The notes under the pieces were generated by a model. It did no database searches. It saw nothing but the letters and a program-made list of their open reading frames with translations, and had not been told where the DNA came from. 64,000 nucleotides of DNA from a virus: the IMG/VR virus record IMGVR_UViG_3300027985_000978, positions 17,680-81,679 of that record. One strand, written 5' to 3'. The translations under genes and the position numbers were made by a program. Shown here in pieces: positions 793 to 59,332 of the stretch (position 1 is the first letter of the stretch; every line of letters starts with the position of its first letter).

Positions 793-924
793 CAATCCCC
801 CACGGGTTGAGGCTAGGTGCAATCGGGCGAATTGCTAAGGACGGGAGCCGACTGTCAAGATCCACCAGCCGAACTGATTAGGATGATAGCATTAATGAAC
901 CTGTCAACGTAAAAAGGGCATTAA

Positions 925-3900: not shown

Positions 3901-6900
3901 AAGATGGTGGACTTGGGTATTGATTCCGGCAAGCTGCAAGCAATGGCTAAGAACCACACGCAAGCCATGAAAAAAGAGCGTGCCAAGGAAAAAGCCGCTG
4001 ACACTGGAACCCTGAAAAAGCTCGATATTCCTTACTTCGAAGATATGGGATTCGATAACGTCGTGATCGACGAAGGCCATAACTACCGGAACAGCTACAA
4101 GGCAGGCCGCGAAAGCAGCAAACTTGCTTATTTGCCAACGGCGCAATCAGCAAAAACAGCTATCGATCTGGCGGTTAAATCTGACTATCTGCGCAACAAG
4201 TACGACGGGCGCGGCGTCACCTTGCTGACCGCAACCCCAACGGTGAATAGTCCGATCGACATTTTCAACATGCTCTCTCACGTATTAAGCCCTGAAGAAT
4301 GGCAGGCTTACGGTATCTATGACGCTGACGACTTTGTGAAAGTATTCGGGGAAACCGAAGAAGTCATGGTGCAGAAACTATCCGGCCAAGTTGAGAACAA
4401 GCAAGGCTTAACAGGGTTTAAAAACTTAACCGGCCTACGCTCACTCTTCCACCGCTGGGTAAATCTGAAAGACGCTAAATCAGTGTCAGATACGGTCAAA
4501 ATCCCTGAACTGGACGAGCAGAAAACTGAAGCGCCAATGACTGAAGAACAAGCGCAAATCTATGAAACATTGCGTAAACGCGCCGAAGACCTTAGTCACG
4601 CTAAAGCATTAGGCATTGTCGAAACAGACGAAAACGGCTGGCCGATCCCTGAAGATTCTATCTTTGCCATTATTCGAGACATGGATCGCGTCTGTACTGA
4701 TACTGACTTGTATTACAAGACTATGACGTTCCGATTCCCAGCAAACAAGCTGGAAGAGGTTAAGCAGCTGGCCGCCGATTTACCCACTTCAAAAACTATC
4801 AAAGCAACTGCCAGTGACAAAGAGGATGAAGAGGCCGACACGGAAAGTTTAACCACGGATAGCGGCGCTAAAATCACCCCCGACGAGCACGCGGTTACAT
4901 TGGTTGTTCACGAAGCGTTTGAAGATGAAGTCATGAAGCGACTGAAAAAGTTCGGACTTGATAAGAAAGACGTTTCACACCCCGTTACACCAAAATATGC
5001 GCGTCTGTTGGAAAACCTGAAAAATGCCTATGAGAACGGCGGCAAACAGATCATCTTCACTGAAGAAAAGAGCCAGCATAACAAGTTAGAGCGCATCATT
5101 GCGCATCACTTGGGGATTCCATCTGAAGAAATCAGCATCATCAATGCTGCCACCGTCAAGGGTAAAGGATCTGAAGATGATTTACGCGGATTAGAACTGA
5201 TTGGTGCAGCCTTCAACGAAGGCAAAGTAAAAATCCTGATCTGTAACAAAAAAGCCGAAGTGGGCGTGAACTTGCACCACGGCACAACTGATATCCATCA
5301 CCTGACCTTGCCTTGGACACCTGCAAGCATTAAGCAGCGTAACGGGCGCGGCGCTCGCGTGGGTTCAAAGCAAGACAAGGTGCGCGTCTGGTATTACGTG
5401 GGTAAAGGTTCGTTTGATGAATTCCGCTTAGAAACACTGAAACACAAGGCGAACTGGCAAAATGAACTATTCACCTCCGATGCGGAACGCATGAAAAATG
5501 CCGACGCAGACGATGGCGCAGAAGCATCTTTGCTACTGGCTCAAGACCCTGAACAGCGTAAAGCGCGTATCGCAGAGAACCAGCGTAAAGCTGAAGAGAA
5601 GATCAAACAGGCGGCAATAATCCGCGCCAATATCGACCTGCACAACTTCCTGAAAGCGGCGCATGATGCAGCTGGCGATCCTGAAGTGGTAGCCCGTGAT
5701 TTAGAGCAGGCCAAGGCATTAATGGCAACGCTAAACCGGACGTATCAGAACGCGGTAAATAACGCCAATCAAAACCGTGAATATGCAGCTGAGTCTACTA
5801 CCATGAAAGACTGGTATCTCAGAAATGCAAAAGACTATGATCGAAAAGCTAAAGCCGCTCTGCCTAAGCTGAACAGCGCCCGAAAAGACGTTGCACGCTT
5901 AGAGCGTCAGTCTACCCGTATCGCTTCAGCCACCAGCACAATGAAACGCTTACGGCCTGAACTGGAACGCGCCCAGCGTGACAACCTGTTAGAGATCACC
6001 AGTGACCTGTTAGACAACGGTAGCCAATACCTGACAGACGGCAAGAAACTAATCAAGGCTGGAAGCATCTATAACAGCGTATCCGGTGGCAAAATTGCGC
6101 GTGTCGAATCATTCAACTTTGACACCAAATCAGCCGAAGTCACGTTGCTGTACCTGAAGGGCGAATACCAAAGCAGCAAGTTAAATACGACGACTTGGTG
6201 GGGGCTTGAGATTTTCGGCAACGAAACCAGTATCAGCATGTCCGAGATAGAAAAACTTCAGAAAATGATGAGCTCACTGGATCTGACCAAAGCGGTTGAG
6301 TTACTGGATAAAGCCGAGTTCAGCGAATACTTACAAGATGGAACACTGACGCTAACCGGTAGCGGTTATGTTTTTTATGATGATGAAGCTGGGTTCCAGT
6401 ATGAATCGTCGTACAGGATGGATAAGAAAGACCTGTCAAAAGTCATCTATCCAGATCCAAAAGATGAAGCGCTGAAGGCGAAAATGGCCGCGTGGCTGTT
6501 GAAAGATCGCAGCATGTTAAGCGACTACCGCTCCGAATATAACTGGATCAAGGCGGTATTCGGTGACAAGCCAACTCAGGCGGTGGAGAACTACGGGGTT
6601 AAAGCGCCAGAGCAAGTCATTAATGAGTGGCTGGCAGGCCGTATGAAAGCCTACAAGGATGCAGCTGACACACAAGGCGAATTGGAGAAACTGAACCGGC
6701 TTGAATCTAATGTTTATGGATGGAGTTTTGATTCATTCGCATGGCGAAACATGGAAACCCCGCCAGAATATCAGAATATCAGTGACTTTGAGGCTGCCGT
6801 TCAGCGTGGTAAAGAGATCCTGAAGTCTGAAGCCAAGACACTGACTGATGCAGCACAGGCGCGTGCAGCGACGAAATGGCAGGCGAAATGGACGATTGCA

Positions 6901-9574: not shown

Positions 9575-9859
9575 ATGGGATTATCAGTAGTACAGCGCGA
9601 CACACTTGAAATTATGTATCTCATTCGCCAGCAGATCGGAGATAAGCCGATCCCATCCATGAAGCTGTTAGAGATCCTGAACGACACACGCTCACACCGC
9701 GTACTGCCGCAAAATTTCCGCACGTCCTGTCATACGCTGGCACGACATGAACTGATTGCGCTCACACGGCATGAAACCAGCCTTAAACTATCCTTTGCAC
9801 TCACTAAAAAGGGACTGAAACAAGCTGAAACAATCCACCAGCAAAGGAGTCCTGAATAA
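9575..9859 (+). CDS. Small winged-helix DNA-binding protein
   Basis: 94 aa. NFRTSCHTLARHELI...FALTKKG fits a wHTH recognition helix and wing. Confidence 0.6.
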   Translation: MGLSVVQRDTLEIMYLIRQQIGDKPIPSMKLLEILNDTRSHRVLPQNFRTSCHTLARHELIALTRHETSLKLSFALTKKGLKQAETIHQQRSPE

Positions 9860-10056
9860 TGGCTATCCAGTTCAGAAAGCGCGTGCGACTGTTGCCGTTC
9901 CTATGGCTCAATCTTGGCAAAACGGGCGTATCATTCACCCTTGGGGTGAAGCCTATCTTTTTCACTTTCAGTAAGCGTGGGATCGGCTTTAGTGCATCCC
10001 TGCCGCGTACCGGTCTAAGTTATCGAAAACAACTCACCAGAAGAAAACCACAATAA
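9859..10056 (+). CDS. DUF4236-like small basic protein
   Basis: FRKRVRLLPFLWLNLGKTGVSFTLG...GLSYRK pattern. Confidence 0.65.
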   Translation: MAIQFRKRVRLLPFLWLNLGKTGVSFTLGVKPIFFTFSKRGIGFSASLPRTGLSYRKQLTRRKPQ

Positions 10057-10071
10057 TTTCACTACATATTG

Positions 10072-10101
10072 TTGACGGGTGCGATATGGGTGCGATATAT
10101 T
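10072..10101 (+). promoter_or_regulatory. Promoter with tandem 11-bp direct repeat in the spacer
   Basis: TTGACG-18-TATATT, with GGGTGCGATAT twice (10077-10098). Confidence 0.65.
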
Positions 10102-10176
10102 CAAATCGTACTCATTGAGTACCTACTAATTTAAGACGCCAGCCAATACCGGCAAGGCATAAAAAGGAGTTCAACC

Positions 10177-11304
10177 ATGTACTTTTCTAACGCTGCTCAA
10201 GCCTACACTTTCCTTTCTGATAAAACCGCTTATAACGCGCATGTATCCGCTGTTGCTGCAATCAAAAATGAATTAGGCGTTAAGAATTTTAAGGCGCTGG
10301 CATCTTCTTATCGCCATACTCAATCTGCACAAAAAGAAGCCCTTAAAGCTGTTAAAGGCGGCAAAAAATGCACTCAGTCACGATTCGTTGAACTGTGCAA
10401 AGAATACAGCTCTTTGCTTGAGTATCGTAAAAATATTCAGGCAGCTAAACACGCTCGCGCATATACATCCAGCAACACACCACGTAAAAACTGCACTGTG
10501 TTTGCATGGAACGCGCACTATTCATCCCAAAAAATGGATAACAAAAAAGTGCGTGATATGGCAATCAATCAGGGCCGTTGCGGTACTGAAGCCATGAAAG
10601 CAAAACGCTTAGACATCATTCGCGGCATCATTAGCCGTGAAGTTGTTCCGTCTGTATCTGGCTCTGAATCAATCACTGTTTCACTGGTCACTGATCCTGC
10701 GCTGGTTTCTTATAATTCACGCACCGATAAAGGCGATCAATACAGCAAACGTTGTACTTTCCGTAAAACTGACTTGTATGTGCATGTAAAACTGCCTGCA
10801 CAATGGTACAGCCGCGTTTACAAGCGCGATCTGTATGAAATTGACGGCCTATTTAATCTGGACGTATCAACCGCCCTGCATGGCAATTACGGTGAAGGCG
10901 TTGAAGTGTTCGCCGCCACTTGGTTAGTTGATAGTCGCGGTACATCTAAAAACGTTGTGCGTGGCTTTATCGCTCGTCGTGGTATCTATGCTTTTCATGG
11001 CAAAACCTTAGCCAGCGCTGTGCAAGGATTGGCGCGGAAATGTGAAATTCAATCTCTGATTCAATCAGAGCCTAGCGACATCATTGAACGCGCTAAAAAA
11101 GTGGACGGCGTACTTCACCTATCTGATAGCTATGCAGTCGGTAACTGTGAATGGGGTACGCTTGATTTCTGCGCTCGTCACAATATCGCCGTAACCGGTG
11201 AAAACCCATCTATCACAGTCAAAGAACTGGCTCAAAAAGTCGCACTCGAACCGCGCCGTGAAGCGCTGGCGGTTCTGGTTCGTGCAATCAAAAAACACAT
11301 CTAA
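10177..11304 (+). CDS. Hypothetical basic phage protein
   Basis: 375 aa, strong RBS AAGGAG. C-terminal GNCEWGTLDFC motif, function unknown. Confidence 0.7.
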   Translation: MYFSNAAQAYTFLSDKTAYNAHVSAVAAIKNELGVKNFKALASSYRHTQSAQKEALKAVKGGKKCTQSRFVELCKEYSSLLEYRKNIQAAKHARAYTSSNTPRKNCTVFAWNAHYSSQKMDNKKVRDMAINQGRCGTEAMKAKRLDIIRGIISREVVPSVSGSESITVSLVTDPALVSYNSRTDKGDQYSKRCTFRKTDLYVHVKLPAQWYSRVYKRDLYEIDGLFNLDVSTALHGNYGEGVEVFAATWLVDSRGTSKNVVRGFIARRGIYAFHGKTLASAVQGLARKCEIQSLIQSEPSDIIERAKKVDGVLHLSDSYAVGNCEWGTLDFCARHNIAVTGENPSITVKELAQKVALEPRREALAVLVRAIKKHI

Positions 11305-11366
11305 TTCTAGTCCCCACTAGCAAACCTGCCGCGCCTGTTATGGTGCGGCCTTTTGGAGTACCTATC

Positions 11367-11783
11367 ATGGCATCTGTAAAAAAATCTGTTCGTCTGATTG
11401 ATGCAACTATCCGTATTTGTCGCGTTATTTCCCGTATCAGCAAAGTAGCACCAGACAATGAAATTAACTGGTCTGGTTCGATTAACACTATGGCTGCCGA
11501 ATATGCGCTGATCATGGAAGAGAACAAACCAGAACTGACATTCAATCAATGGAACGCGCTTTACTGTCTGTATAACGGCTATATGCCGTCTGAATACCCT
11601 GAAAGAGAAGCACGGCTTTTGTGGTGGCACATTTCTGAAGGGTACACATGGGATGAACAGATAAAGGAATTCTTAGGCACGCAAGAAGCGGCGGCGGCCC
11701 TCATTGAAGAAGTGAAAGGATGGAACGTTGCCAAACAGCTATCAGCCATCTATCACGCCAAGGCGTTCTGGTCGGAGGTGTAA
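11367..11783 (+). CDS. Putative ribbon-helix-helix regulator
   Basis: RBS GGAG. N-terminal KKSVRL strand then helices (NWSGSIN...PELTFNQWNAL). Confidence 0.5.
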   Translation: MASVKKSVRLIDATIRICRVISRISKVAPDNEINWSGSINTMAAEYALIMEENKPELTFNQWNALYCLYNGYMPSEYPEREARLLWWHISEGYTWDEQIKEFLGTQEAAAALIEEVKGWNVAKQLSAIYHAKAFWSEV

Positions 11784-11875
11784 TCATGCAGCCACTAAAA
11801 ACACCTTTCACCACCTCACAGATTGATTAGGATAAGATCTCCCATTGGCTCGTAATGACAATGGGAGATCTTATA

Positions 11876-12313
11876 ATGACAACCACATTACCCCGTGGGA
11901 TTCGCAACAATAACGCCGGTAATATTGATTATCACGCATCAGTTCAATGGCAGGGATTAGACCCCGCAAAACCTTCTGACGGTCGATTCTGCCGGTTCAT
12001 CAAACCTGAGTATGGTATCCGCGCTATTACTCGTATCCTGCGCAACTACACTAAGCGTGACGGCACAGCTGGCGTGGGACTGAAGGGCATTGATACCGTT
12101 TATGAAATTATCAATCGCTGGGCTCCGCCAACAGAAAACGACACGGGCGCTTATATCGCCGCAGTCGCTAAAAATGCAGGCGTTGATCCGAAAGAACACA
12201 TCGAACTGACAGAAGAAAAACTGCTAGTTCTGGTGAAAGCGATTGTGAAGCATGAAAACGGGATTCAGCCGTATTCAGATAGCACCATTTTGGCCGGTAT
12301 TAAGTTAGCTTAG
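11876..12313 (+). CDS. Lysozyme-like protein (P5-type virion protein / endolysin candidate)
   Basis: PRGIRNNNAGNI, RFCRF..PEYGIRA, IINRWAPPTENDT, IVKHENG motifs. RBS lies in a 16-bp stem. Confidence 0.75.
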   Translation: MTTTLPRGIRNNNAGNIDYHASVQWQGLDPAKPSDGRFCRFIKPEYGIRAITRILRNYTKRDGTAGVGLKGIDTVYEIINRWAPPTENDTGAYIAAVAKNAGVDPKEHIELTEEKLLVLVKAIVKHENGIQPYSDSTILAGIKLA

Positions 12314-12366
12314 AGCCGCTTAAAACGACTTATTTGCAATCTCTTAAAAACTGATTAGGATAATCA

Positions 12367-12449
12367 ACGGGCAACTTACACAGTAACTTGAATAGGACAA
12401 GGCTGGGTAGGATGGGAAAAGGGCAGTCTTCGGACTGCCCTTTGTCTTT
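12367..12449 (+). ncRNA. Candidate trans-acting sRNA (sRNA1) complementary to late-gene leaders
   Basis: TTGCAA-16-TAGGAT promoter (12334-12361), no ORF, terminator at 12418-12449. Elements CGGGCAAC and AGGCTGGGTAGGATGGGAAA recur antisense in five leaders. Confidence 0.6.
12417..12449. terminator. Bidirectional intrinsic terminator
   Basis: AAAGGGCAGTC-TTCG-GACTGCCCTTT between convergent units. Confidence 0.85.
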
Positions 12450-12806
12450 CTAGCGGTTCAACAAGTTCAATAACGCATTGTGTCGTCTGACATGGGCCGG
12501 AACCGATTCAAACATATCTGAATCACTTTCTTCCGAATGATTACCGTCTAAATCGTCGCTGGTGGCCTCTGTCAGCCCCGTTACAGTGATTCCGGCACTT
12601 TCAAGCGCCATAGATACCCCGATTGGCGTAAATGCGCCTACAGCCATTCTACAGCCTCGCCCGTCCTGTTCGCCGTCGCTCATACCCTCAATTGTTTCCT
12701 GATATTCTTCTGGTGTAACAATCATTGCGGCTGGTTCGTCGGATGATTCGACATCGAACCGACACACCACCAGCTGATCAAACAATGTAAATGATAGTTC
12801 CTGCAT
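12450..12806 (-). CDS. Small acidic protein in the P1 hxr position
   Basis: 118 aa, coupled to ddrB. Assignment by synteny only. Confidence 0.55.
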   Translation of the reverse strand: MQELSFTLFDQLVVCRFDVESSDEPAAMIVTPEEYQETIEGMSDGEQDGRGCRMAVGAFTPIGVSMALESAGITVTGLTEATSDDLDGNHSEESDSDMFESVPAHVRRHNALLNLLNR

Positions 12807-15800
12807 TACTTACCCTGCCCTTCCAGTGATAACCCCTGCTTCCCCAGCCGCTTAACAATAGCAAGCATGAGCGCCAAGTGTTCAGGATCTTTCTGTGCTA
12901 GTTCCGCAATCCCTTTATCTGAAGACAAGCACCCCATCCCCATTGAAACAACTTCAGTCCAGCTAACGTCCGGCCATGTACCATAAACCCGCCCAACGTA
13001 TGGTTCGAAAAATCCATCATTGATAGCAACCTCATTCTTGCCATAACCAGCGCTTTGACACATATCAGCTAATTTGCGGATCGGACGCGGATCAGAAATC
13101 CCCGCGTAACGGCGCTTTAGTAATGCCGTGGCTTGTTCAAATACCCACTTATTATGAAATTCAATGAAGTGCCCGAACTCATGCCACAGCGTTTCTTTTG
13201 TGAGCGCGTTCCCGACATTCAACACCAAATCATAGGGGTTTGCACTGGCGCGTTTTTTCTTATATGCCAAGGTGATTTCTTCTACATTGCCGCCTGATAA
13301 CTGGTAAAGCGTTGCTAAGTCATCCCGAACATCTGGGATTGAGTATGTGCCAGCTAAACGAGTGGACGTTATTTTTACGGGCGTATTCTTTGCGCGTGCC
13401 TGCGCTGCCTCTGGCGTAACAACTGAATTTGCTAATGTATCCGCAATGATTTCCTTTACAGGGTTTATCCCTGCAATGATGTCTGCATTCTTCGCTGAAG
13501 CGATCTCTCGGTTTACTTCCCCCATTAACTTATTAGCAATTTTGAGAATGAAAATACCTTCCGAACGATACTCTTTAAACCAAGCGTTCAGGCCGTCATA
13601 AACAGCATCACGCGACATTGGCGGGTTAGCCTTAACTTTTTCGATAATGTCTTTCACTTTAGCGCTTAATGCCGCTCTGGATGTGGCGCTCATCTGCTTT
13701 GCATCTTTAACGCGCTTAACGGACGCCGTTATCAGTGATTCGTTAATCTGTTTATCTAAATTGTCATCAAAAAACACCGACGCATCAATGGTTGCAATAG
13801 ACAAGCCTTTCACTATGTCATGTATGGCATCAATATCTTTTTCAAAGTCAGTTTTAAGGCCGGTTGATTTATCGAACCACTCCAACAGATCGGGTATTGC
13901 GCGTGCTTTTTTCACTTTCGGTTTATAGAAGTCAAGGTTTCTAAGCATCTGAAAACCAGTTGCTTCAAGCATCACCACCGGTTGATATGCGCCGGTTGTA
14001 TCGCCGGTATCTAACCACTCTTTGAAATCATTCATGTGCAGCTGGTGGATCGACTCGGCGGCGTTCCAGCCCGTTTCGTAGTTCGATAGATAAGCATCAT
14101 GGGCGCTATCTCTGTCAGAAAATCCCAGCATTACCTTATGTTCGTCAAAATGCCCTGTTTCTTGGTCAATTTGATTCACAATAAATACTTGGTCACTATC
14201 CAGTTCGTCACCCAAGAAGAAATCAACGTGATCGCCGTCTGCGCCTTCGGTTCGTTTGATATATCCGTAGTGGTGCATCATCTTGCTTTCCCACTCTTTG
14301 CCGGACGCATCAACACCCCGACGAACTGAGCCTTTTGGATTCTCATAAGTGAGCGGTAGCCCGTGAAAATCTACATGTCCTTTCGTGTAATTTCCGGCTA
14401 TCTGTTGCGCTGGCGTTGGATCGATATTCACCAGCATTGCAGCTGCCGCGATCTGGCGTGCTAACACTGAGTCAAACATTCCCAGCGTCATTCCTGCTTT
14501 GTCTCCGTACTGTTCTTGCATCTGCTCTGATACCCGCGCCAGAACGGTGATTAAATCAAGTGGCGGTGCACCAAACATATCACCGGCTGCCTGCCCTTGG
14601 TGGGTTAGTTCAGCGTTAATTTCACCAGCTAATAGCCTGAAGGCTTCGCCCATGCGTTTTGCAGATCGGTTGTTGTCAGCAATGAATTTAGCCAGTGCTG
14701 CCGCACTTGGATCGGTATCGCCAAACAATGCGCCCTGCGCTAAATATTCATCAATGTTCTGGCCGGTTGATTTAGCCGTTCTGACAATCGTTGCAGCGTC
14801 CACCAGTGCGGCCAATGCTTCATTATCCAGACTGCTGTTAATCTCGATACCATCAGCCACGTTACTAGCTGTTTGTTTGTGGGCCTCACCAGATAAGTAG
14901 CGCATAGCGATAAAATCAGGCGCGGCGGCGTTCAGGGCCGTTAGAACGTTGCGGATTTCTGGATCTGGTTCTTCAACTGACAGCTTTAGTAGCTTTTCGT
15001 TTTGATAGGCTTTCGCAAAGATAGCGCCTTGTATCCGGTCTACTACCTGCTTTGTCGGTCTGCCGTCTGCCGTCATATAACCGGCTGCCTGTTCGCTGCC
15101 AAGTTTTTGCATGAATGCTTGAATGAAAGGCAGGTTACTAGCCGCCAGCAAATCCCCGCCCTCGGACGGTGAAAATAACGACATGGTTTTTTCATCCAGA
15201 TTTTCAGCATCTACCCGCGCCAGTTCGACGGGGCTCATGGCCTGCAAGTCTGAAATGTTTGAATCCTTGGTGAACTGCAAGCGGTCTACATCATCGAGCC
15301 GGACGCGCACTAATACCGGCTGTTCCATGCGTTCAACATCAGCACGTTTAAGCCCGTAGAGTTCAGCGTTATCAATTAGATATTTCCGGTAACTGTCAGC
15401 GTTCCCGTCTGCATAGGCTTTGATAATTGCCATCGAGCGCCCGTTCCCTGACTCAACTACTCGATCACTGCCAACAATCGGCGCACCGTGGCTGGATAAG
15501 CCGGAATCCGCCAGCTGTACCGGCCTTAATGACTTCGATAGTTTGGTGATCTGCATGATACTGGCTGCACGGGTACGATCACGCGGTTGTAGCTCTTGCG
15601 GATAAGCTGCATTGATCTTGCCATCCAGTGAGTTAGACGTAATCAGATCGCTGGCGTCCACCAGCTTAAAGGCTGTTTTGACTTCTTGGCCCTTAACCGT
15701 CACGACATAGCTTACACGGCCATGCTCCACCTGATCGGCTTGCGATACCCATTCATCATTGGCTGGGTTTGTAGCTTGATTGAAGACGGCCAAAAGTGAC

Positions 15801-15859: not shown

Positions 15860-15906
15860 ATCGCCTCATAAAAAATAAGGCTGGTGGATGGTCGGGCAAC
15901 TATCTT

Positions 15907-26692: not shown

Positions 26693-26780
26693 ATTTAAGC
26701 CTCATGGGAATGAGGCCGGAAAGGATGGGAAACGGGCTTTGTTATGCTATCACAGCATCCTGTTTAACATGGGAAAGTGG

Positions 26781-38790: not shown

Positions 38791-38844
38791 TGATATTTAC
38801 CCTCGTTACAGGCGCGGCCAATCAGCCGCACCTATGCGCCACGA

Positions 38845-40488: not shown

Positions 40489-40679
40489 TGAATTGCCCCT
40501 ATTGTTTAAAAAACGGCTAAGAGCTGGTTCTGACCAACTCCAAATAGGGCAACAAATTGTATGGGGGATGGGAGTGTAACCACTCAAGGGTCGTAAGCCG
40601 ATCTCTTGATTAGGAAGTGATTACACTGCAATCATATAACAAAGTTTTTGATCAGTGGTGAAACCTGTTTTTACAGGGG

Positions 40680-41459: not shown

Positions 41460-41564
41460 TTCTTGAGCCTCTTTTGAGGCGGGTAGGGATGGTCGGGCAA
41501 CCTGTTAGCGTACTATTTTTTTACACAGAAAATTATACACCACCTGAGTAGTGTCTATACACCA

Positions 41565-53372: not shown

Positions 53373-53409
53373 TTTCGCGCTCCTTGATGCCAACTGAACC
53401 GATTTCCAC

Positions 53410-53466
53410 TTTAAGATATACCCATTGGGTACATATAACAAGGATTTATTCATATCAGATATGAAT
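53410..53466 (-). promoter_or_regulatory. Promoter with two palindromic operators
   Basis: TACCCATTGGGTA (53419-53431) and ATTCATATCAGATATGAAT (53448-53466). Confidence 0.65.
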
Positions 53467-53498
53467 TATCAGCCACCAGCACGCGGGAACCAGACAAT

Positions 53499-53520
53499 AA
53501 AAAACCCGCTCTTGCGGGTC
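53499..53520 (-). terminator. Intrinsic terminator
   Basis: ACCCGC/GCGGGT stem with a T run on the minus strand. Confidence 0.75.
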
Positions 53521-53594
53521 TTAGTGGTAAAGCTGTAATGCTAATTCCTTTTGTTGATTGCGTTAAAAGGCCACCAGCTGGTGGCGATTAATCA

Positions 53595-54092
53595 TTAAAA
53601 TAGTTTCTGTGCCGCTTCATCATCGGCGTACTTGGCTTGGTGCTTCTTGGCTACCTTCCCAGCCTTGGTTAAACACTCCTGAAATGCTGCCACCCTAGCC
53701 AGATCGTCATCAGTTGGTAATCGAGAGATTATTAAACCCTCTGGAATCACGATCCTTGAGTTTGGCGTTTCAAGCACAATGCACATAACGTCCACCCATT
53801 CGCCGTTTACGCTTTTCTTAATGCCGCTAGGGTCACGACTGATTGAATTCACTGTGAAGCGCTTTGAAGCTGACGAAAGGCGATAGCGGCCACCAACAAC
53901 CGCGTCTGTCGCTGGGATTTCAAGAATGGATTCTAAATAGCTGTAGGCGGCCTGACCTCTTTTTGTAAACACCACTTTCGCGCCGTGACATTTGAAACAG
54001 GTGCGCCCGTACATTGAAGTGTATGAATACTCGCCCGTGCCATAACATCTAGGGCAGGTTTCGTGCTCTAAAATATCAATCACTCTAGCCAT
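53595..54092 (-). CDS. Hypothetical protein with DnaJ-like CxxCxGxG zinc finger
   Basis: CPRCYGTG...CFKCHG. Confidence 0.7.
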   Translation of the reverse strand: MARVIDILEHETCPRCYGTGEYSYTSMYGRTCFKCHGAKVVFTKRGQAAYSYLESILEIPATDAVVGGRYRLSSASKRFTVNSISRDPSGIKKSVNGEWVDVMCIVLETPNSRIVIPEGLIISRLPTDDDLARVAAFQECLTKAGKVAKKHQAKYADDEAAQKLF

Positions 54093-54157
54093 GATATGTA
54101 TTCCTTGCTCATTAGAAGGCCACCAGCACGGGCGGCCATGCGATTAATTAGATAACA

Positions 54158-54799
54158 TCAGATGGTGATTTCCTTTAGTTCTGGACAATTAACCCAATCA
54201 TCAAACTCATGCTTCAGTGAGTAATAATCTTCCCTGATCGAACTGATATAGTCGTATGTCCCGCAGCAATACGCCTTCGCCAGTAATGCTGTTCTGATTG
54301 ATTCACGCCACTGGTTCGGCGTTAAATCCCATTCCTGCATATCTCCGTGGTCTGGATTCATCGTTAAGCCTTCCGCCAGCTCTTTGACGCTATTCTCATT
54401 GACGCAAGCCTCAACGAACGGCGACATACCCTGTGCCGCTTCTTCCATCTTGCAAAGCACACCACGGAGATCCAGACCTTCCACCAGCGAATCGACATGT
54501 GCATCTTGCAGAGCGGTTTTAATCAGCAAGCCAGCAATCACGCGGCGTTTCTCTATGCGTTGCATCAATGACACTTCAACCAGACTTGCCGCGATCTCGC
54601 TTATCAGTTCTGACCCGTACCGTTCGCCGGTCATTTCAGCGATCCACGCTAACTTCTCTTCATAATCGCAGTGCTGGTGATAGTCAGTGACTTTTAACTC
54701 TTTGACTGTCTCCAATGGATTGAAAAAGAAGTCATTCGACTTTTCACCGAACGGGAAGTAAACGAGAACGCTGTGTAGGGTTTTATGTACTGTTGCCAT
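54158..54799 (-). CDS. Hypothetical acidic protein
   Basis: 213 aa, RBS AAGGA. Confidence 0.65.
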   Translation of the reverse strand: MATVHKTLHSVLVYFPFGEKSNDFFFNPLETVKELKVTDYHQHCDYEEKLAWIAEMTGERYGSELISEIAASLVEVSLMQRIEKRRVIAGLLIKTALQDAHVDSLVEGLDLRGVLCKMEEAAQGMSPFVEACVNENSVKELAEGLTMNPDHGDMQEWDLTPNQWRESIRTALLAKAYCCGTYDYISSIREDYYSLKHEFDDWVNCPELKEITI

Positions 54800-54860
54800 G
54801 ATGTGTATTCCTTATGCTTCTTGGATTGGTTAGAGCCACCAGCGGCGGCCCTCATGCCTG

Positions 54861-56126
54861 TTATTCGATGATATCTACTGAGCCAGCGATCTGATTCATA
54901 AACCATTCAGTCGCGGCTTCTTTACCGAATACTTCAAATACTTCGTCGTTAGTGTCACCACACATACCCCAATCCATGCCGGAATCCTCCTCTTTGACAA
55001 CCGGCAGGAATTCATATTCAAATTCGCCTATCTCCCGTCTTTCTAAGCAAGCGGCCATGTTGTATCCCTTGCCTTCATGCTGGAACTTAACAACGATAAA
55101 GCCATCCTCTGACCTTATTTCAGTATCAACATTTTCAGCTTCGTTAATGTCCTTCAATTCGCGGCTCCATTCTTCCGGCCACGGAGCACGATCCCACAAT
55201 TCACGGCAAAAGCTAATTGCTCTATCAGTCTCCGCCTGATTGTCCGATTCAATGATGCTGGTTATTGTTGAGTTATCGCTTACTACTTCTATAACCGCCT
55301 CTGGAAACGCTTCTGTTAGCTGGTTATGAGCCCATGAGCGATAGTTAGACGCTTCGATTTCGGTTACATCACCCATTGTGTCGATTGGTGCAAAGTAATT
55401 GATTTTTGTTACTTTTGATTCTGTCATTTCCGCTTCCTCTTCTTCTTCAACTACTGGTACGGCTTCTGGTTGTGCTGGTTCGTCGTCTGGATAGACATAG
55501 ACGGTTGCACAAGCGCTGCCCGTCCAAGGTTCGTAGTTGTCATTCATCATTTCGCATGGTGATTCCGCAGAGTCACAACCTACCTCTGCATCAATGAATT
55601 TCACCGTTGGATAAAGCTCTTTGACGCGCTTCAGATCTGCCAGCCATTGCTTTTTGGTTTTCGGGAAGTCCCAATCTTCAGCGGTTCCGAATAACAATTC
55701 GTCTTTATCGTCACGCGCCACTAAGAACGTGCCACGAAAGCGGATAGTTCTGTATTCAAACTCTTTACGAGCGTTGTCTTTAGCTTCCGATCTCAGGTCT
55801 TTTAAAACAGCCTGCATGTCGGCCCATGTTTCAGGAAGAGATTCTCCCTCTTCCTGCTCAGGGGTAGTTTCAGCCCATACCACATCAATTCTTGCATTGT
55901 TCCCAATGCTGGTAGCTTTCAGCGCTTGATATGGCGCAATTACATCAACTGCTTCAGCTTCAGTGAACATTTGCAGTGAACCGTCAGCACGGCGCGTACC
56001 GTTCACGCAGATACAGGAATAAGCCACGTCAACCACATAACCCTTTGCGCGTAGTTCGTTGGCGATTGCTTTTACCTGTTCACCCATTGAGCCTTGTCTT
56101 TCTAAGTAGATAACGTTGCTTGGCAT
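54861..56126 (-). CDS. Hypothetical highly acidic multidomain protein
   Basis: 421 aa, D/E-rich with linker-separated blocks, RBS TAAGGA. Confidence 0.7.
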   Translation of the reverse strand: MPSNVIYLERQGSMGEQVKAIANELRAKGYVVDVAYSCICVNGTRRADGSLQMFTEAEAVDVIAPYQALKATSIGNNARIDVVWAETTPEQEEGESLPETWADMQAVLKDLRSEAKDNARKEFEYRTIRFRGTFLVARDDKDELLFGTAEDWDFPKTKKQWLADLKRVKELYPTVKFIDAEVGCDSAESPCEMMNDNYEPWTGSACATVYVYPDDEPAQPEAVPVVEEEEEAEMTESKVTKINYFAPIDTMGDVTEIEASNYRSWAHNQLTEAFPEAVIEVVSDNSTITSIIESDNQAETDRAISFCRELWDRAPWPEEWSRELKDINEAENVDTEIRSEDGFIVVKFQHEGKGYNMAACLERREIGEFEYEFLPVVKEEDSGMDWGMCGDTNDEVFEVFGKEAATEWFMNQIAGSVDIIE

Positions 56127-56194
56127 GATATAGATTCCTTATCTGGTGGCTGGTGGCGCTGTAGTTGTCCGGTTCAAATGAACCATTGAGATAA

Positions 56195-58597: not shown

Positions 58598-59332
58598 ATG
58601 TCACAGGATGTAGCGCTCTTTATGGAGTTTTGCGAACTCCGAGAAGCCATCATTGAAGAGATCAAAGCGATTGCCGTTTTTTCTGAAGAGAAGAACGGTA
58701 AAACCGTGCGCCCGATTGGGGTCATTAAAACCAATGCTGAATATTTTAAATTTGAGAAATATTTAGCAAGGTGGCGTGAACTGGTTAATCAATTAAATGA
58801 AATTAACCCTGTTCGCTATCCGTTAAATGCTGAGAAGTTTTCTTTAATGCCGCAATTATATACCGGCGTTGAATCATTCTCTGTTTATATTTCCCCTGCT
58901 ACGCTCTCTCGCAAATATGAGAAAGCGAAAATAGTTTCCCGCATGGAAAAATATATTGATTCATTATCCCATGATTCCCGTAATACAGGCGACTGGACAA
59001 TTACCAATCGCGTGAAACATGAATTGGAGGTCATGAATAAAGATAAGGAAACCTATTACCGGCTGCGGAATACTTGCAGCACAGATATGACTTGCGTATT
59101 AACGTATGAGAACGGATTAACTGATAAAGTAAAAATCCCGTTTTGCGGCGCGTTATTATTTAATAATGAAAGATTGATAGATTTAAAACCGACGAAAAAA
59201 TTAAATACCCGTACCGACAGTTTTGATTATTTAGGCGTGAACCCTATCGCCTGTTCGTTGTCATTGGCTGGCAACCTGTACCGTGAATCAGAAATAATAA
59301 AAGCGCGGGAACGTCGCGCCATGAGTAAATAA
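58598..59332 (+). CDS. c1: C1 primary repressor homolog
   Basis: LF.EF...R, G..VRP..V, P....GV, IPFCG, PI.C...LYR..EI align with recalled P1 C1; convergent with pacB as in P1. Confidence 0.82.
   Translation: MSQDVALFMEFCELREAIIEEIKAIAVFSEEKNGKTVRPIGVIKTNAEYFKFEKYLARWRELVNQLNEINPVRYPLNAEKFSLMPQLYTGVESFSVYISPATLSRKYEKAKIVSRMEKYIDSLSHDSRNTGDWTITNRVKHELEVMNKDKETYYRLRNTCSTDMTCVLTYENGLTDKVKIPFCGALLFNNERLIDLKPTKKLNTRTDSFDYLGVNPIACSLSLAGNLYRESEIIKARERRAMSK

What the first reader, a model, noticed from the sequence alone, without database searches (positions are those of the whole stretch)
12334..12449. Candidate phage sRNA acting as a multi-target toehold-switch activator of late-gene translation
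Seen: an ORF-free ~80-nt unit with promoter (TTGCAA-16-TAGGAT, overlapped by the operator) and terminator. It carries element a CGGGCAACT (12368-12376) and element b AAGGCTGGGTAGGATGGGAAA (12399-12419). The same strings occur on the + strand, i.e. antisense to the mRNA, just upstream of five minus-strand late genes with real leaders: prt, ddrB, R, gene 23, upfB. I did not see them at the short coupled junctions. In all five the RBS sits in a hairpin whose 5' arm is covered by the complementarity, next to an upstream toehold (UCCCAUCC and/or GUUGCCCG, degenerate in prt). Several substitutions are G-U compatible. Inference: one C1-controlled RNA unlocks translation of head, portal, fibre and cargo genes, perhaps replacing Lpa. 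P1 C4 RNA also uses two pairing elements, but it represses a single operon. I know of no described system like this.
Basis: partly seen in the sequence, partly recalled or inferred. Interest (0 to 1): 0.92.

Follow-up and report, generated by a model that had tools for sequence, protein, structure and literature searches.

The report
Conserved phage riboregulator matching late-gene leaders
A small repressor-controlled RNA unit beside the lysis gene of a P1-like phage is complementary to leader elements that lock the ribosome sites of late genes, and this match has co-evolved in four related phage-plasmids, so it probably switches late proteins on at the level of translation.

Summary
The sequence features are at the stated coordinates. 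The claim that "the same strings" precede five genes is overstated: only short cores recur.

The window is a distant P1-like phage-plasmid from a vent metagenome. I found no Lpa homolog and no P1-type late promoters. TCCTAATCA is its C1-type operator, with 16 exact copies.

The new result is comparative. The module operator–hairpin–b–terminator recurs in Aeromonas salmonicida, A. hydrophila and Vibrio campbellii P1-like plasmids. Its flanks differ, but its internal polarity is always the same. In each lineage the b core is different, and it matches that lineage's own R and prt leaders just 5' of the anti-SD arm of an RBS hairpin. In a swap control, cognate duplexes averaged −34.8 kcal/mol against −23.1 for non-cognate ones, and the cognate was best in 8 of 8 rows.

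A trans-acting pairing RNA is therefore the best reading. Activation of translation is inferred, not shown. No RNA data exist and the promoter is weak. In silico, ddrB and the upfB-like leader are no better than controls.

Rivals: a lineage-specific protein that recognises the same motif, or pairing with another outcome.

The parts
12334..12339 (+). -35-like TTGCAA. By comparison it is the relic of the start-codon region of an amidase endolysin gene that follows the module in the Aeromonas salmonicida relative.
12350..12366 (.). C1-type operator (core TCCTAATCA on the minus strand at 12352-12360). It contains the -10-like TAGGAT (12356-12361, + strand).
12368..12376 (+). Element a, CGGGCAACT. 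The core CGGGCA is kept in the Aeromonas modules. Its complement GTTGCCC(G) occurs in the ddrB, 259-aa and 23 leaders.
12372..12414 (+). Predicted 5' stem-loop of the RNA. It sequesters much of b: -11.6 kcal/mol, z -2.8; the minus strand folds to only -6.3.
12399..12419 (+). Element b, AAGGCTGGGTAGGATGGGAAA. It is purine-rich and SD-like, directly abuts the terminator, and has a lineage-specific core.
12418..12453 (.). Bidirectional intrinsic terminator shared with the convergent ddrB-118 aa operon. The + strand tail is TTTGTCTTTC.
11855..12313 (+). Endolysin gene (phrog_873, E 2.5e-57) directly upstream on the same strand, so the module also lies in its 3' untranslated region.
26693..26755 (-). 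R (tail-fibre operon) leader. It holds a conserved TGTGATAGCATAAC box (26741-26755), b' at 26713-26732, and the RBS hairpin GGCCTCAT/ATGAGGCT (26698-26717). This is the best predicted target.
15860..15901 (-). ddrB leader. It holds a' at 15893-15901, b' at 15877-15891 and the RBS hairpin GCCTTAT/ATGAGGC (15863-15881). It contains a Chi complement.
41460..41502 (-). Leader of the 259-aa (upfB-like) gene. a' (41494-41502) is directly followed by b', then the RBS hairpin GCCTC/GAGGC. A TATAAT box lies about 35 nt upstream.
40489..40615 (-). Gene 23 (capsid) leader: operator at 40607-40615, CCCATCC at 40566-40572, GTTGCCC at 40547-40553. GTTGCCC forms the 5' arm of a long-range helix with the RBS.
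793..883 (-). prt (portal) leader: operator at 875-883, then a split b' (TCCCGTCCT ... ACCTAGCCT) around a small hairpin, then the RBS hairpin. The real start is the ATG at 792.

Best explanation
Window 12334-12449 is this phage's copy of a conserved riboregulator module of Lpa-less P1-like phage-plasmids. The module reads C1-type operator, (a), central hairpin, purine-rich b, intrinsic terminator.

What the sequences show:
- The module keeps this internal polarity in four lineages while its neighbours change.
- Its b core differs between lineages and matches that lineage's own late-gene leaders.

What is inferred:
- The + strand is transcribed, from an operator-overlapped promoter and/or as the 3' end of the endolysin transcript, and it ends at the terminator as an RNA of about 80 nt.
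- After C1 is lost, b (helped by a) pairs with the pyrimidine-rich b' (a') tracts in the 5' leaders of R, prt, 23, ddrB and the upfB-like gene.
- Pairing runs 3-5 nt into the anti-SD arm of the hairpin that hides the SD. This frees the SD and turns translation on, the anti-antisense or toehold logic.

My odds: a pairing RNA of some kind about 0.7; pairing that activates translation about 0.5.
For: 1. Conserved module with varying flanks.
- WIN: endolysin, then module, same strand.
- A. hydrophila NZ_CP121796.1: operator, a, hairpin, b, terminator with a run of 7 T, SD, then endolysin (phrog_90) and Rz spanin on the a/b strand. The a/b strand must be transcribed there to express lysis genes.
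- V. campbellii NZ_CP050480.1: operator-like word, hairpin, b, terminator with a run of 6 T, 27 nt, then the darB ATG on the a/b strand.
- A. salmonicida NZ_CP110646.1 and pASP-135: module divergent from an Amidase_2 endolysin, with a T-run of 8-9 in the a/b direction.

2. Co-variation. The b' core is CCCATCC in WIN, CCCCTTCCCC in W1/W8, TCACTCCCC in W3 and CCCCACCAAAATC..AACGCCACT in W6. In each case the core is shared by the module and that genome's own leaders.
- Shared 7-mers between module b' and leaders: WIN 14 (cross-genome 2, 2, 2), W1 20 (cross 1, 1; its near relative W8 8), W3 15 (cross 1, 3, 4).
- With W6 included, the diagonal is 6, 14, 9, 4 and off-diagonal values are 0-1.

3. Swap control. 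Duplex energy of the 32-nt b region with 70-nt R/prt leaders: cognate -36.2/-30.5, -45.3/-36.6, -36.1/-32.3, -29.2/-31.8 kcal/mol. The 24 non-cognate values range from -16.3 to -30.0. The cognate is best in its row in 8 of 8 cases.

4. Geometry. In all four lineages b' ends at or inside the 5' (anti-SD) arm of the RBS hairpin. For R the predicted cofold opens the hairpin, ddG -15.0 kcal/mol.

5. Regulatory context. No Lpa homolog (best phmmer E = 2; tblastn) and no P1-type late promoter (best score 13.3 against 11.4-22.0 for P1's own ten, nine of them 18.7 or more). Operators precede prt, darB, lydA, 23, mat, the endolysin and c1.

6. The W1 and W8 terminators differ by a compensatory stem change.
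Against: - No RNA run holds this DNA, so no transcript, 5' end or 3' end is known.
- The consensus scan calls no sigma-70 promoter on the a/b strand in WIN, W3 or W6. In W1 it calls only TGAACA-18-TATAGT further upstream. TAGGAT is just the complement of the operator core.
- In WIN, b is largely paired within the RNA's own 5' stem.
- Cofold ddG for ddrB (-3.8), 259aa (-8.7) and 23 (-8.9) is within the range of three control leaders (-3.9 to -8.0), and the ddrB and 259aa RBS hairpins stay closed.
- In ddrB and 259aa, a' precedes b', which is not collinear with a..b in the RNA.
- Gene 23 leaders show no cognate advantage in the 70-nt windows used.
- Within the window alone the complementarity is not above what shuffled RNAs reach. 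Clustering of hits is P = 0.15 against intergenic controls.
- Wobble-compatible transitions outnumber incompatible ones 13 to 4, but P is 0.16-0.21 after correcting for composition.
- There are only four lineages, and W1/W8 count as one. Two further relatives (Photobacterium W4, Vibrio sp. W5) gave no convincing module in the same screen.
- Consensus folding of four module RNAs gave no supported common structure.
Confidence: 0.5

Rival explanations
1. The RNA is made and pairs with the leaders, but the outcome is not translational activation. It could instead be repression or coaxial stabilisation of the RBS hairpin, or duplex-directed processing or decay of late mRNAs. The logic could also run the other way: abundant late leaders pair with b next to the module's terminator and modulate read-through into the downstream gene (endolysin in W3, darB in W6).
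For: b directly abuts the terminator stem in all four lineages. In W3 and W6 a gene follows the terminator on the same strand. For ddrB and 259aa the predicted pairing leaves the RBS hairpin intact.
Against: b is SD-like and pairs with the anti-SD side, not with the SD or AUG. In WIN and W1/W8 no gene follows the terminator on the a/b strand, so read-through control cannot be the general function.
Confidence: 0.2
2. b' and a' are recognition sites for a lineage-specific protein, such as a Com-like translational activator, an antiterminator or an unrecognised late activator. The copy at 12334-12449 is then only one more site. In this window it would be the orphaned upstream region of a lost amidase endolysin gene, and its antisense RNA would have no role.
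For: In W1/W8 an Amidase_2 endolysin gene follows the operator in the b' (sense) direction, and the window keeps a degenerate copy of that gene's SD and start region. All copies have the same orientation relative to genes. The late regulator of this clade is unknown. A 140-aa protein with weak Q-like zinc-finger hits exists outside the window.
Against: In W3, W6 and WIN no gene follows the module in the b' direction. At the module b' lies upstream of the operator, next to a terminator, whereas in the 23 and prt leaders it lies downstream of the operator. So at the module it would not be in an mRNA leader. The order and spacing of a' and b' vary, which suits RNA pairing better than a DNA site. 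The b' cores do not look like promoter elements.
Confidence: 0.2
3. The similarity is non-functional: a decaying relic of a rearranged leader plus chance matches of C-rich anti-SD-like sequences.
For: Within the window alone the statistics are weak. Anti-SD arms must all resemble the 16S 3' end.
Against: The module and its match to own-genome leaders persist across genomes whose proteins are only 36-62% identical. The cores are lineage-specific, and the cognate is best in 8 of 8 rows.
Confidence: 0.05

Closest known systems
Phage P1/P7 C4 antisense RNA (immI). P1 record annotation seen; mechanism recalled from the literature.
   Same: A small RNA of a P1-type phage preceded by a C1 operator. 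Two short pairing elements (a', b') match sites in mRNA leaders. Specificity is set by lineage-specific complementary changes, as in P1 versus P7 heteroimmunity.
   Different: C4 represses one operon (icd-ant) by covering its RBS and is processed from the same transcript. Here there are five or more dispersed late-gene leaders, pairing is to the anti-SD side, and no immI genes are found. There is no Rfam C4 match.
Anti-antisense activator sRNAs such as DsrA/RprA acting on rpoS (abstracts of PMC2831331 and PMC3675490 seen in the listing).
   Same: A trans RNA pairs with the upstream arm of an inhibitory leader helix and frees the RBS.
   Different: Those are host stress sRNAs with one main activated target. 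Here a phage RNA would serve a regulon of structural and cargo genes. Hfq dependence is unknown.
StxS, the short terminated transcript of the Stx phage late promoter PR' that acts as a regulatory sRNA (PMC7547250; only the start of the abstract was seen, in the listing).
   Same: A phage leader RNA ended by an intrinsic terminator just upstream of late or lysis genes works in trans. In W3 and W6 the module is exactly such a terminated 5' leader.
   Different: StxS, as I recall it, acts on host rpoS and on toxin expression, not on the phage's own morphogenetic leaders. It is tied to Q antitermination.
P1 Lpa-dependent late promoters (annotation of AF234172).
   Same: They stand at the same genomic places (upstream of prt, R, 23 and the lysis/dar operon) and define the late regulon.
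   Different: They are DNA elements: a 9-bp -22 box, 4 bp, then a -10. Neither they nor Lpa are detectable here.
T4 gene e (lysozyme) and Mu Com-mom control of RBS hairpins (recalled; the T4 review PMC3014915 was seen only in the listing).
   Same: Translation of a late or lysis gene is locked by an RBS hairpin. It is released by a late-specific event.
   Different: Release there is by a late transcription start inside the hairpin (T4 e) or by a protein (Com), not by a trans RNA.

Membership tests
Rfam C4 antisense RNA family and every other Rfam family | Match to the covariance model | tested here: not met
   cmscan of window 11800-13000 at E up to 10 gave only four chance-level hits of at most 17.9 bits, none of them C4. 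No gathering-level hit was found in the W1 and W3 module regions.
Trans-acting base-pairing sRNA (anti-antisense activator type) | Independent or processed short transcript with its own 3' terminator | not testable with these tools
   The terminator is present. The promoter is weak. No RNA runs exist.
Trans-acting base-pairing sRNA (anti-antisense activator type) | Complementarity to the upstream arm of an RBS-occluding helix in target leaders | tested here: met
   Met for R, ddrB, 259aa, prt and 23 in the window, and for R and prt in W1, W3 and W6.
Trans-acting base-pairing sRNA (anti-antisense activator type) | Co-variation of regulator and targets across relatives | tested here: met
   Four lineage-specific b cores; 7-mer matrices are diagonal-dominant; the cognate is best in 8 of 8 rows. 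The G-U bias is not significant.
Trans-acting base-pairing sRNA (anti-antisense activator type) | Pairing predicted to open the RBS hairpin | tested here: inconclusive
   Opened for R (ddG -15.0). Not opened for ddrB (-3.8) or 259aa (-8.7). Controls range from -3.9 to -8.0.
P1 C1-controlled operator | Asymmetric site of about 17 bp in many copies, including at c1 itself and at syntenic places | tested here: met
   16 exact core copies; 10 of 17 positions agree with the consensus of 19 P1 operators; copies lie at the ref/mat junction and upstream of the c1-like gene. Binding by the c1-like protein is not testable here.
P1 Lpa-type late promoter | 9-bp -22 box, 4 bp, -10 hexamer; Lpa gene present | tested here: not met
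   A matrix built from 10 P1 promoters gives a best score of 13.3 in the genome, against 11.4-22.0 for the P1 promoters themselves (nine of ten at 18.7 or more) and a mean shuffle maximum of 14.8. No Lpa hit.
Intrinsic (Rho-independent) terminator | GC-rich hairpin followed by a T-run | tested here: met
   Window 12418-12443, + strand. W6 minus strand. W3 is called on the sense strand only. The W1 hairpin is not called, probably because its A8/T8 tracts are absorbed into the stem.

The most novel reading that the evidence does not exclude
An Lpa-less clade of P1-like phage-plasmids (vent host, Aeromonas, Vibrio) runs its late programme post-transcriptionally. One repressor-controlled riboregulator next to the lysis or dar genes unlocks RBS hairpins of the portal, capsid, tail-fibre and injected-cargo genes. 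Its seed evolves as a lineage-specific code, so that co-resident relatives cannot cross-activate each other. This would be an RNA counterpart of late-activator specificity, and of C4-type heteroimmunity.
Probability: 0.4. Interest if true: 0.9.

Novelty: new variant of a known kind. Interest (0 to 1): 0.8.

Why it matters
Late gene control in well-studied phages relies on proteins such as activators, sigma factors and antiterminators. If this reading is right, a phage RNA would coordinate translation of a whole late regulon. That would be a new regulatory architecture built from a known mechanism.

It would also explain how P1-like elements without Lpa time their morphogenesis. It gives natural, orthogonal sets of toehold-like switch/trigger pairs from four lineages. 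And it can be tested directly in cultured Aeromonas and Vibrio lysogens.

My searches found no description of such a system in the held library. Subscription journals and supplements were not searchable.

Tried and rejected
Searches for close relatives:
- Megablast and blastn of the locus against phages and plasmids gave no relevant match.
- The exact 15-mer GTTGCCCGACCATCC in viral contigs gave 57 single hits, which I judged to be about what chance gives; none was P1-like.
- A two-operator pattern in viral contigs gave 80 stretches, none related.
- The search for related loci with DdrB found nothing in viral contigs or genome contigs.
- The metagenome scan gave 80 P1-like loci at 39-61% identity. 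None carries the motifs or the operator. Comparing the ddrB leader with the post-ddrB region in those loci showed no informative repeats.

Expression: no RNA holder was listed. Only DNA metagenome runs hold the stretch.

Folding and interaction scans:
- Whole-length duplexfold scanning was uninformative, giving loopy duplexes near -38 kcal/mol everywhere.
- RNAalifold on four module RNAs misaligned the terminators and gave nothing.
- A covariance model was not built because the alignment was too poor.

Readings I considered and dropped:
- b' or a' as sigma-70 or Lpa-type promoter elements. The spacing to any -10 is inconsistent, the W1, W3 and W6 cores lack -10 features, and the order of a' and b' varies.
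- A small peptide. Only a 13-codon ORF without a usable SD is present.
- A CsrA sponge. There are only 2-3 GGA motifs.

Other points:
- Photobacterium (W4) and Vibrio sp. THAF191d (W5) gave no convincing module. One search was too noisy to use.
- The first version of the swap test anchored W3 at the wrong place and was replaced.
- Leclercia pW17-2 (W02) shares only the repressor, terminase and a few other genes and was dropped. Pantoea (W07) was not fetched.

Rows dropped before counts:
- In one search I removed the W3 ddrB and W1 u259 rows, which have no intergenic leader.
- One of the 15 alignments (WIN prt) hit the operator rather than the motif.
- In one search only R, prt and 23 leaders were used.

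The Lobocka 2004 P1 genome paper was not held. P1 promoter and operator data come from the GenBank annotation instead.
Full report
**What the window is.** The 64-kb window is bases 17680-81679 of an 81,679-bp viral record with direct terminal repeats. The only sequencing runs that hold it are hydrothermal-vent or unlabelled metagenome DNA runs. Thirty-five P1 proteins find homologs at 23-61% identity, in a P1-like but rearranged order: prt, darB, ulx, ddrB, darA, hdf, lydB, lydA, S, R, 16, bplA, sit, tub, 22, 23, 5, 6, 7, 24-26, mat, ref, cre, pacB and others. No Lpa homolog is found, by tblastn at E 1e-3 or by phmmer --max against all six-frame ORFs of 50 aa or more (best E = 2). I built a matrix from ten annotated P1 late promoters, read by coordinates. 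Those promoters score 11.4-22.0 against their own matrix, nine of ten at 18.7 or more. The best site in this genome scores 13.3, below the mean maximum of shuffled genomes, 14.8. A weak C1-like protein (E 3.7e-4) is encoded at 58598..59332, convergent with pacB as in P1.

**The operator.** TCCTAATCA occurs 16 times exactly in the genome. Its extended consensus agrees with the consensus of 19 annotated P1 C1 operators at 10 of 17 positions. Copies lie upstream of prt/darB, lydA, 23, the endolysin gene, the c1-like gene and the par/pacA region. One lies at the end of ref, upstream of mat, where P1 has Omat. So most morphogenetic operons appear to be directly repressor-controlled.

**The observation.** The unit lies between the stop of an endolysin gene (11855..12313 +, phrog_873) and the stop of the convergent 118-aa/ddrB operon. 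No ORF of 30 aa or more lies in it. The hairpin at 12418-12443 is called a + strand terminator, but TTGCAA-16-TAGGAT fails the promoter scan with 8 of 12 matches. The repeats are cores, not whole strings. In mRNA sense the leaders read:
- ddrB: GTTGCCCGA-CCATCC-ACCAGCCTT.
- The 259-aa gene: GTTGCCCGA-CCATCC-CTACCCGCCT.
- R: GCCCGTTTCCCATCCTTTCCGGCCT.
- 23: CTCCCATCC, 14 nt, GTTGCCC.
- prt: TCCCGTCCT, 19 nt, ACCTAGCCT.

A further copy lies outside the window at genome 281-296, on the + strand in the leader of a 78-aa ORF. In each case the 3' end of b' runs into the arm that pairs with the SD. Inside this one genome the statistics are modest, and the full cofold calculation favours only R and the genome-281 leader clearly.

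**Relatives.** Nothing close exists in the phage, plasmid, viral-contig or species-genome collections. The Aeromonas salmonicida plasmid NZ_CP110646.1 (W1) is syntenic with the window. R is 62%, gp23 58%, Prt 62% and DarB 57% identical, and it also gives no Lpa hit. A. hydrophila pASP-135 (W8) is a close relative of W1. A. hydrophila NZ_CP121796.1 (W3) is a separate lineage. Vibrio campbellii NZ_CP050480.1 (W6) is more distant, at 36-47%.

**The module is conserved and its polarity is fixed.** Read on the strand of the late genes, W1 has a terminator hairpin, then TTTCCCCTTCCCCGCTCCAGCCT, a central hairpin, GGTGCCCG, then its operator ACATCCTAACC. W3 has a terminator, TCACTCCCCAGTCGCGCC, a central hairpin, GTTGCCCG, then the operator ACATCCTAACA. 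W6 has a terminator, TCCCCACCAAAATCAGAAACGCCACT, a hairpin, then its own over-represented word AATACGAACC, present 14 times in that record. The window has a terminator, TTTTCCCATCCTACCCAGCCTT, a hairpin, GTTGCCCG, then TATCCTAATCA.

The neighbours differ between lineages:
- In W3 the complementary (a/b) strand continues, 25 nt after a run of 7 T, into an SD and an endolysin (phrog_90) plus an Rz spanin.
- In W6 it continues into darB.
- In the window the module follows the endolysin gene on the a/b strand.
- In W1/W8 an Amidase_2 endolysin starts on the other side of the operator, on the other strand.

The window still carries a degenerate copy of that amidase gene's SD and start region. Three unrelated endolysins have thus been swapped around an invariant module. 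In two lineages the a/b strand has to be transcribed for a downstream gene to be expressed. At the module b' lies upstream of the operator and against a terminator, so it is not placed like an mRNA leader element there. These points argue that the a/b strand is the functional one.

**Co-variation.** Each lineage's b' core is shared between its module and its own leaders.
- W1: R, prt, 23, ddrB and a fifth leader at 68402.
- W3: R, prt, 23 and the upfB-like gene.
- W6: R, prt and two further leaders.

Shared 7-mers between a 30-nt module b' and 100-nt leaders are 14, 20 and 15 on the diagonal, against 1-4 across lineages; W1 against its near relative W8 gives 8. In the swap control the duplex energy of the 32-nt b region with R and prt leaders averages -34.8 kcal/mol for the 8 cognate pairs and -23.1 for the 24 non-cognate pairs. 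The cognate is best in its row 8 of 8 times (means computed by me from the printed values). Gene 23 leaders show no such advantage in the 70-nt windows used. The a core is conserved in the window and the Aeromonas lineages, so it is uninformative; it is absent from W6. Transitions that would keep G-U pairs outnumber the opposite kind 13 to 4 over 15 alignments. Given the C-rich targets this is not significant (P = 0.16-0.21).

**Mechanism.** b is purine-rich and SD-like. b' is a pyrimidine tract that ends in the anti-SD arm. Pairing therefore competes with the inhibitory helix, as in DsrA-rpoS. For R the cofold prediction opens the hairpin. For ddrB and the 259-aa leader it does not. R also has a conserved box, TGTGATAG(C/G)ATAAC, upstream of b' in the window, W1, W3 and W8. 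It reads as an extended -10 (TGnTAGSAT) and has no operator nearby. R mRNA may therefore be made without repressor control and depend on a post-transcriptional switch. This last step is inference.

**Against, and rivals.** There are no expression data. The promoter is weak by consensus scanning. In the window's RNA, b is partly buried in its own stem. Two of the five window targets are unconvincing thermodynamically. a' and b' are not collinear in two leaders. Only four lineages were available, and two further relatives gave no module. A lineage-specific protein that reads b' remains possible, and so does pairing with a different outcome.

**Comparison with what is known.** The unit matches no Rfam family. 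It works like an anti-antisense sRNA. It resembles P1 C4 in its operator control, its two elements and its lineage-specific code. It resembles StxS in being, in W3 and W6, a terminated leader ahead of late genes. I found no paper describing a phage RNA that controls translation of its own late regulon. The held library omits most subscription journals, and supplements were closed.

**Verdict.** This is a real, conserved feature. The pairing-RNA reading is well supported by comparative evidence, but activation is not demonstrated. I rate it a new variant of a known kind, of high interest.

Noticed in passing
window 11824-11878: The endolysin gene has an operator copy 22 nt upstream of its start. 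Its SD (GGGAG) lies in a long perfect hairpin (arms TAAGATCTCCCATTG / CAATGGGAGATCTTA). The left arm contains CTCCCAT, which resembles b'.
   Followed up: partly
genome G000 5426-5462 (outside the window; locus L008): A 15-nt copy of element a plus its 3' flank (CGGGCAACTTACACA) sits on the + strand in the loop of the hairpin CCTGTTT/AAACAGG. It lies downstream of a 71-aa ORF that follows two operator copies (5138, 5194). It may be a second RNA presenting element a.
   Followed up: no
window 26741-26755 and the R leaders of W1, W3 and W8: TGTGATAG(C/G)ATAAC is conserved upstream of R in genomes whose proteins are about 60% identical. It reads as an extended -10 promoter (TGnTAGSAT) at the place of P1's LPs, with no operator nearby.
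   Followed up: partly
window 53400-56130 (leaders of the 434-, 165-, 213- and 421-aa genes), 15880 and 860-870: E. coli-type Chi (GCTGGTGG) or its complement recurs in several leaders. In the A. salmonicida plasmid the most frequent 9-mers all contain Chi (up to 26 copies).
   Followed up: partly
window 11855-12313; L228 9743-10210; L244 10238-11104: Three unrelated endolysins (phrog_873 type, Amidase_2, phrog_90 type plus Rz spanin) occupy three different positions and orientations around the same conserved module. The lysis cassette has been swapped repeatedly.
   Followed up: yes
whole genome G000: No Lpa, immI (c4/icd/ant), kilA/repL or ssb homologs of P1 were detected. C1-type operators precede nearly all morphogenetic operons. 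This suggests a one-tier transcriptional scheme, unlike P1.
   Followed up: partly
L008 12260-12682 (outside the window): A 140-aa protein has weak PHROG hits, one of them to a Q-like antitermination family (E 1.3e-4). It is a candidate for an unrecognised late regulator.
   Followed up: no
L259-L263 (V. campbellii NZ_CP050480.1): Positions 5964 and 92468 have identical contexts, 86,504 bp apart. The record seems to carry a terminal overlap of about 6.2 kb from assembly.
   Followed up: no
L244-L248 (A. hydrophila NZ_CP121796.1): R, gp23 and the endolysin are each split over two or three frames. These are either sequencing frameshifts or pseudogenes. The PLSDB table lists no gene at 9832-11769.
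   Followed up: no
window 38791-38844: A GC hairpin (GCGGC tgattg GCCGC) sits in the 54-nt gap between gene 23 and the next gene. It could be an attenuator or a processing site inside the long late operon.
   Followed up: no
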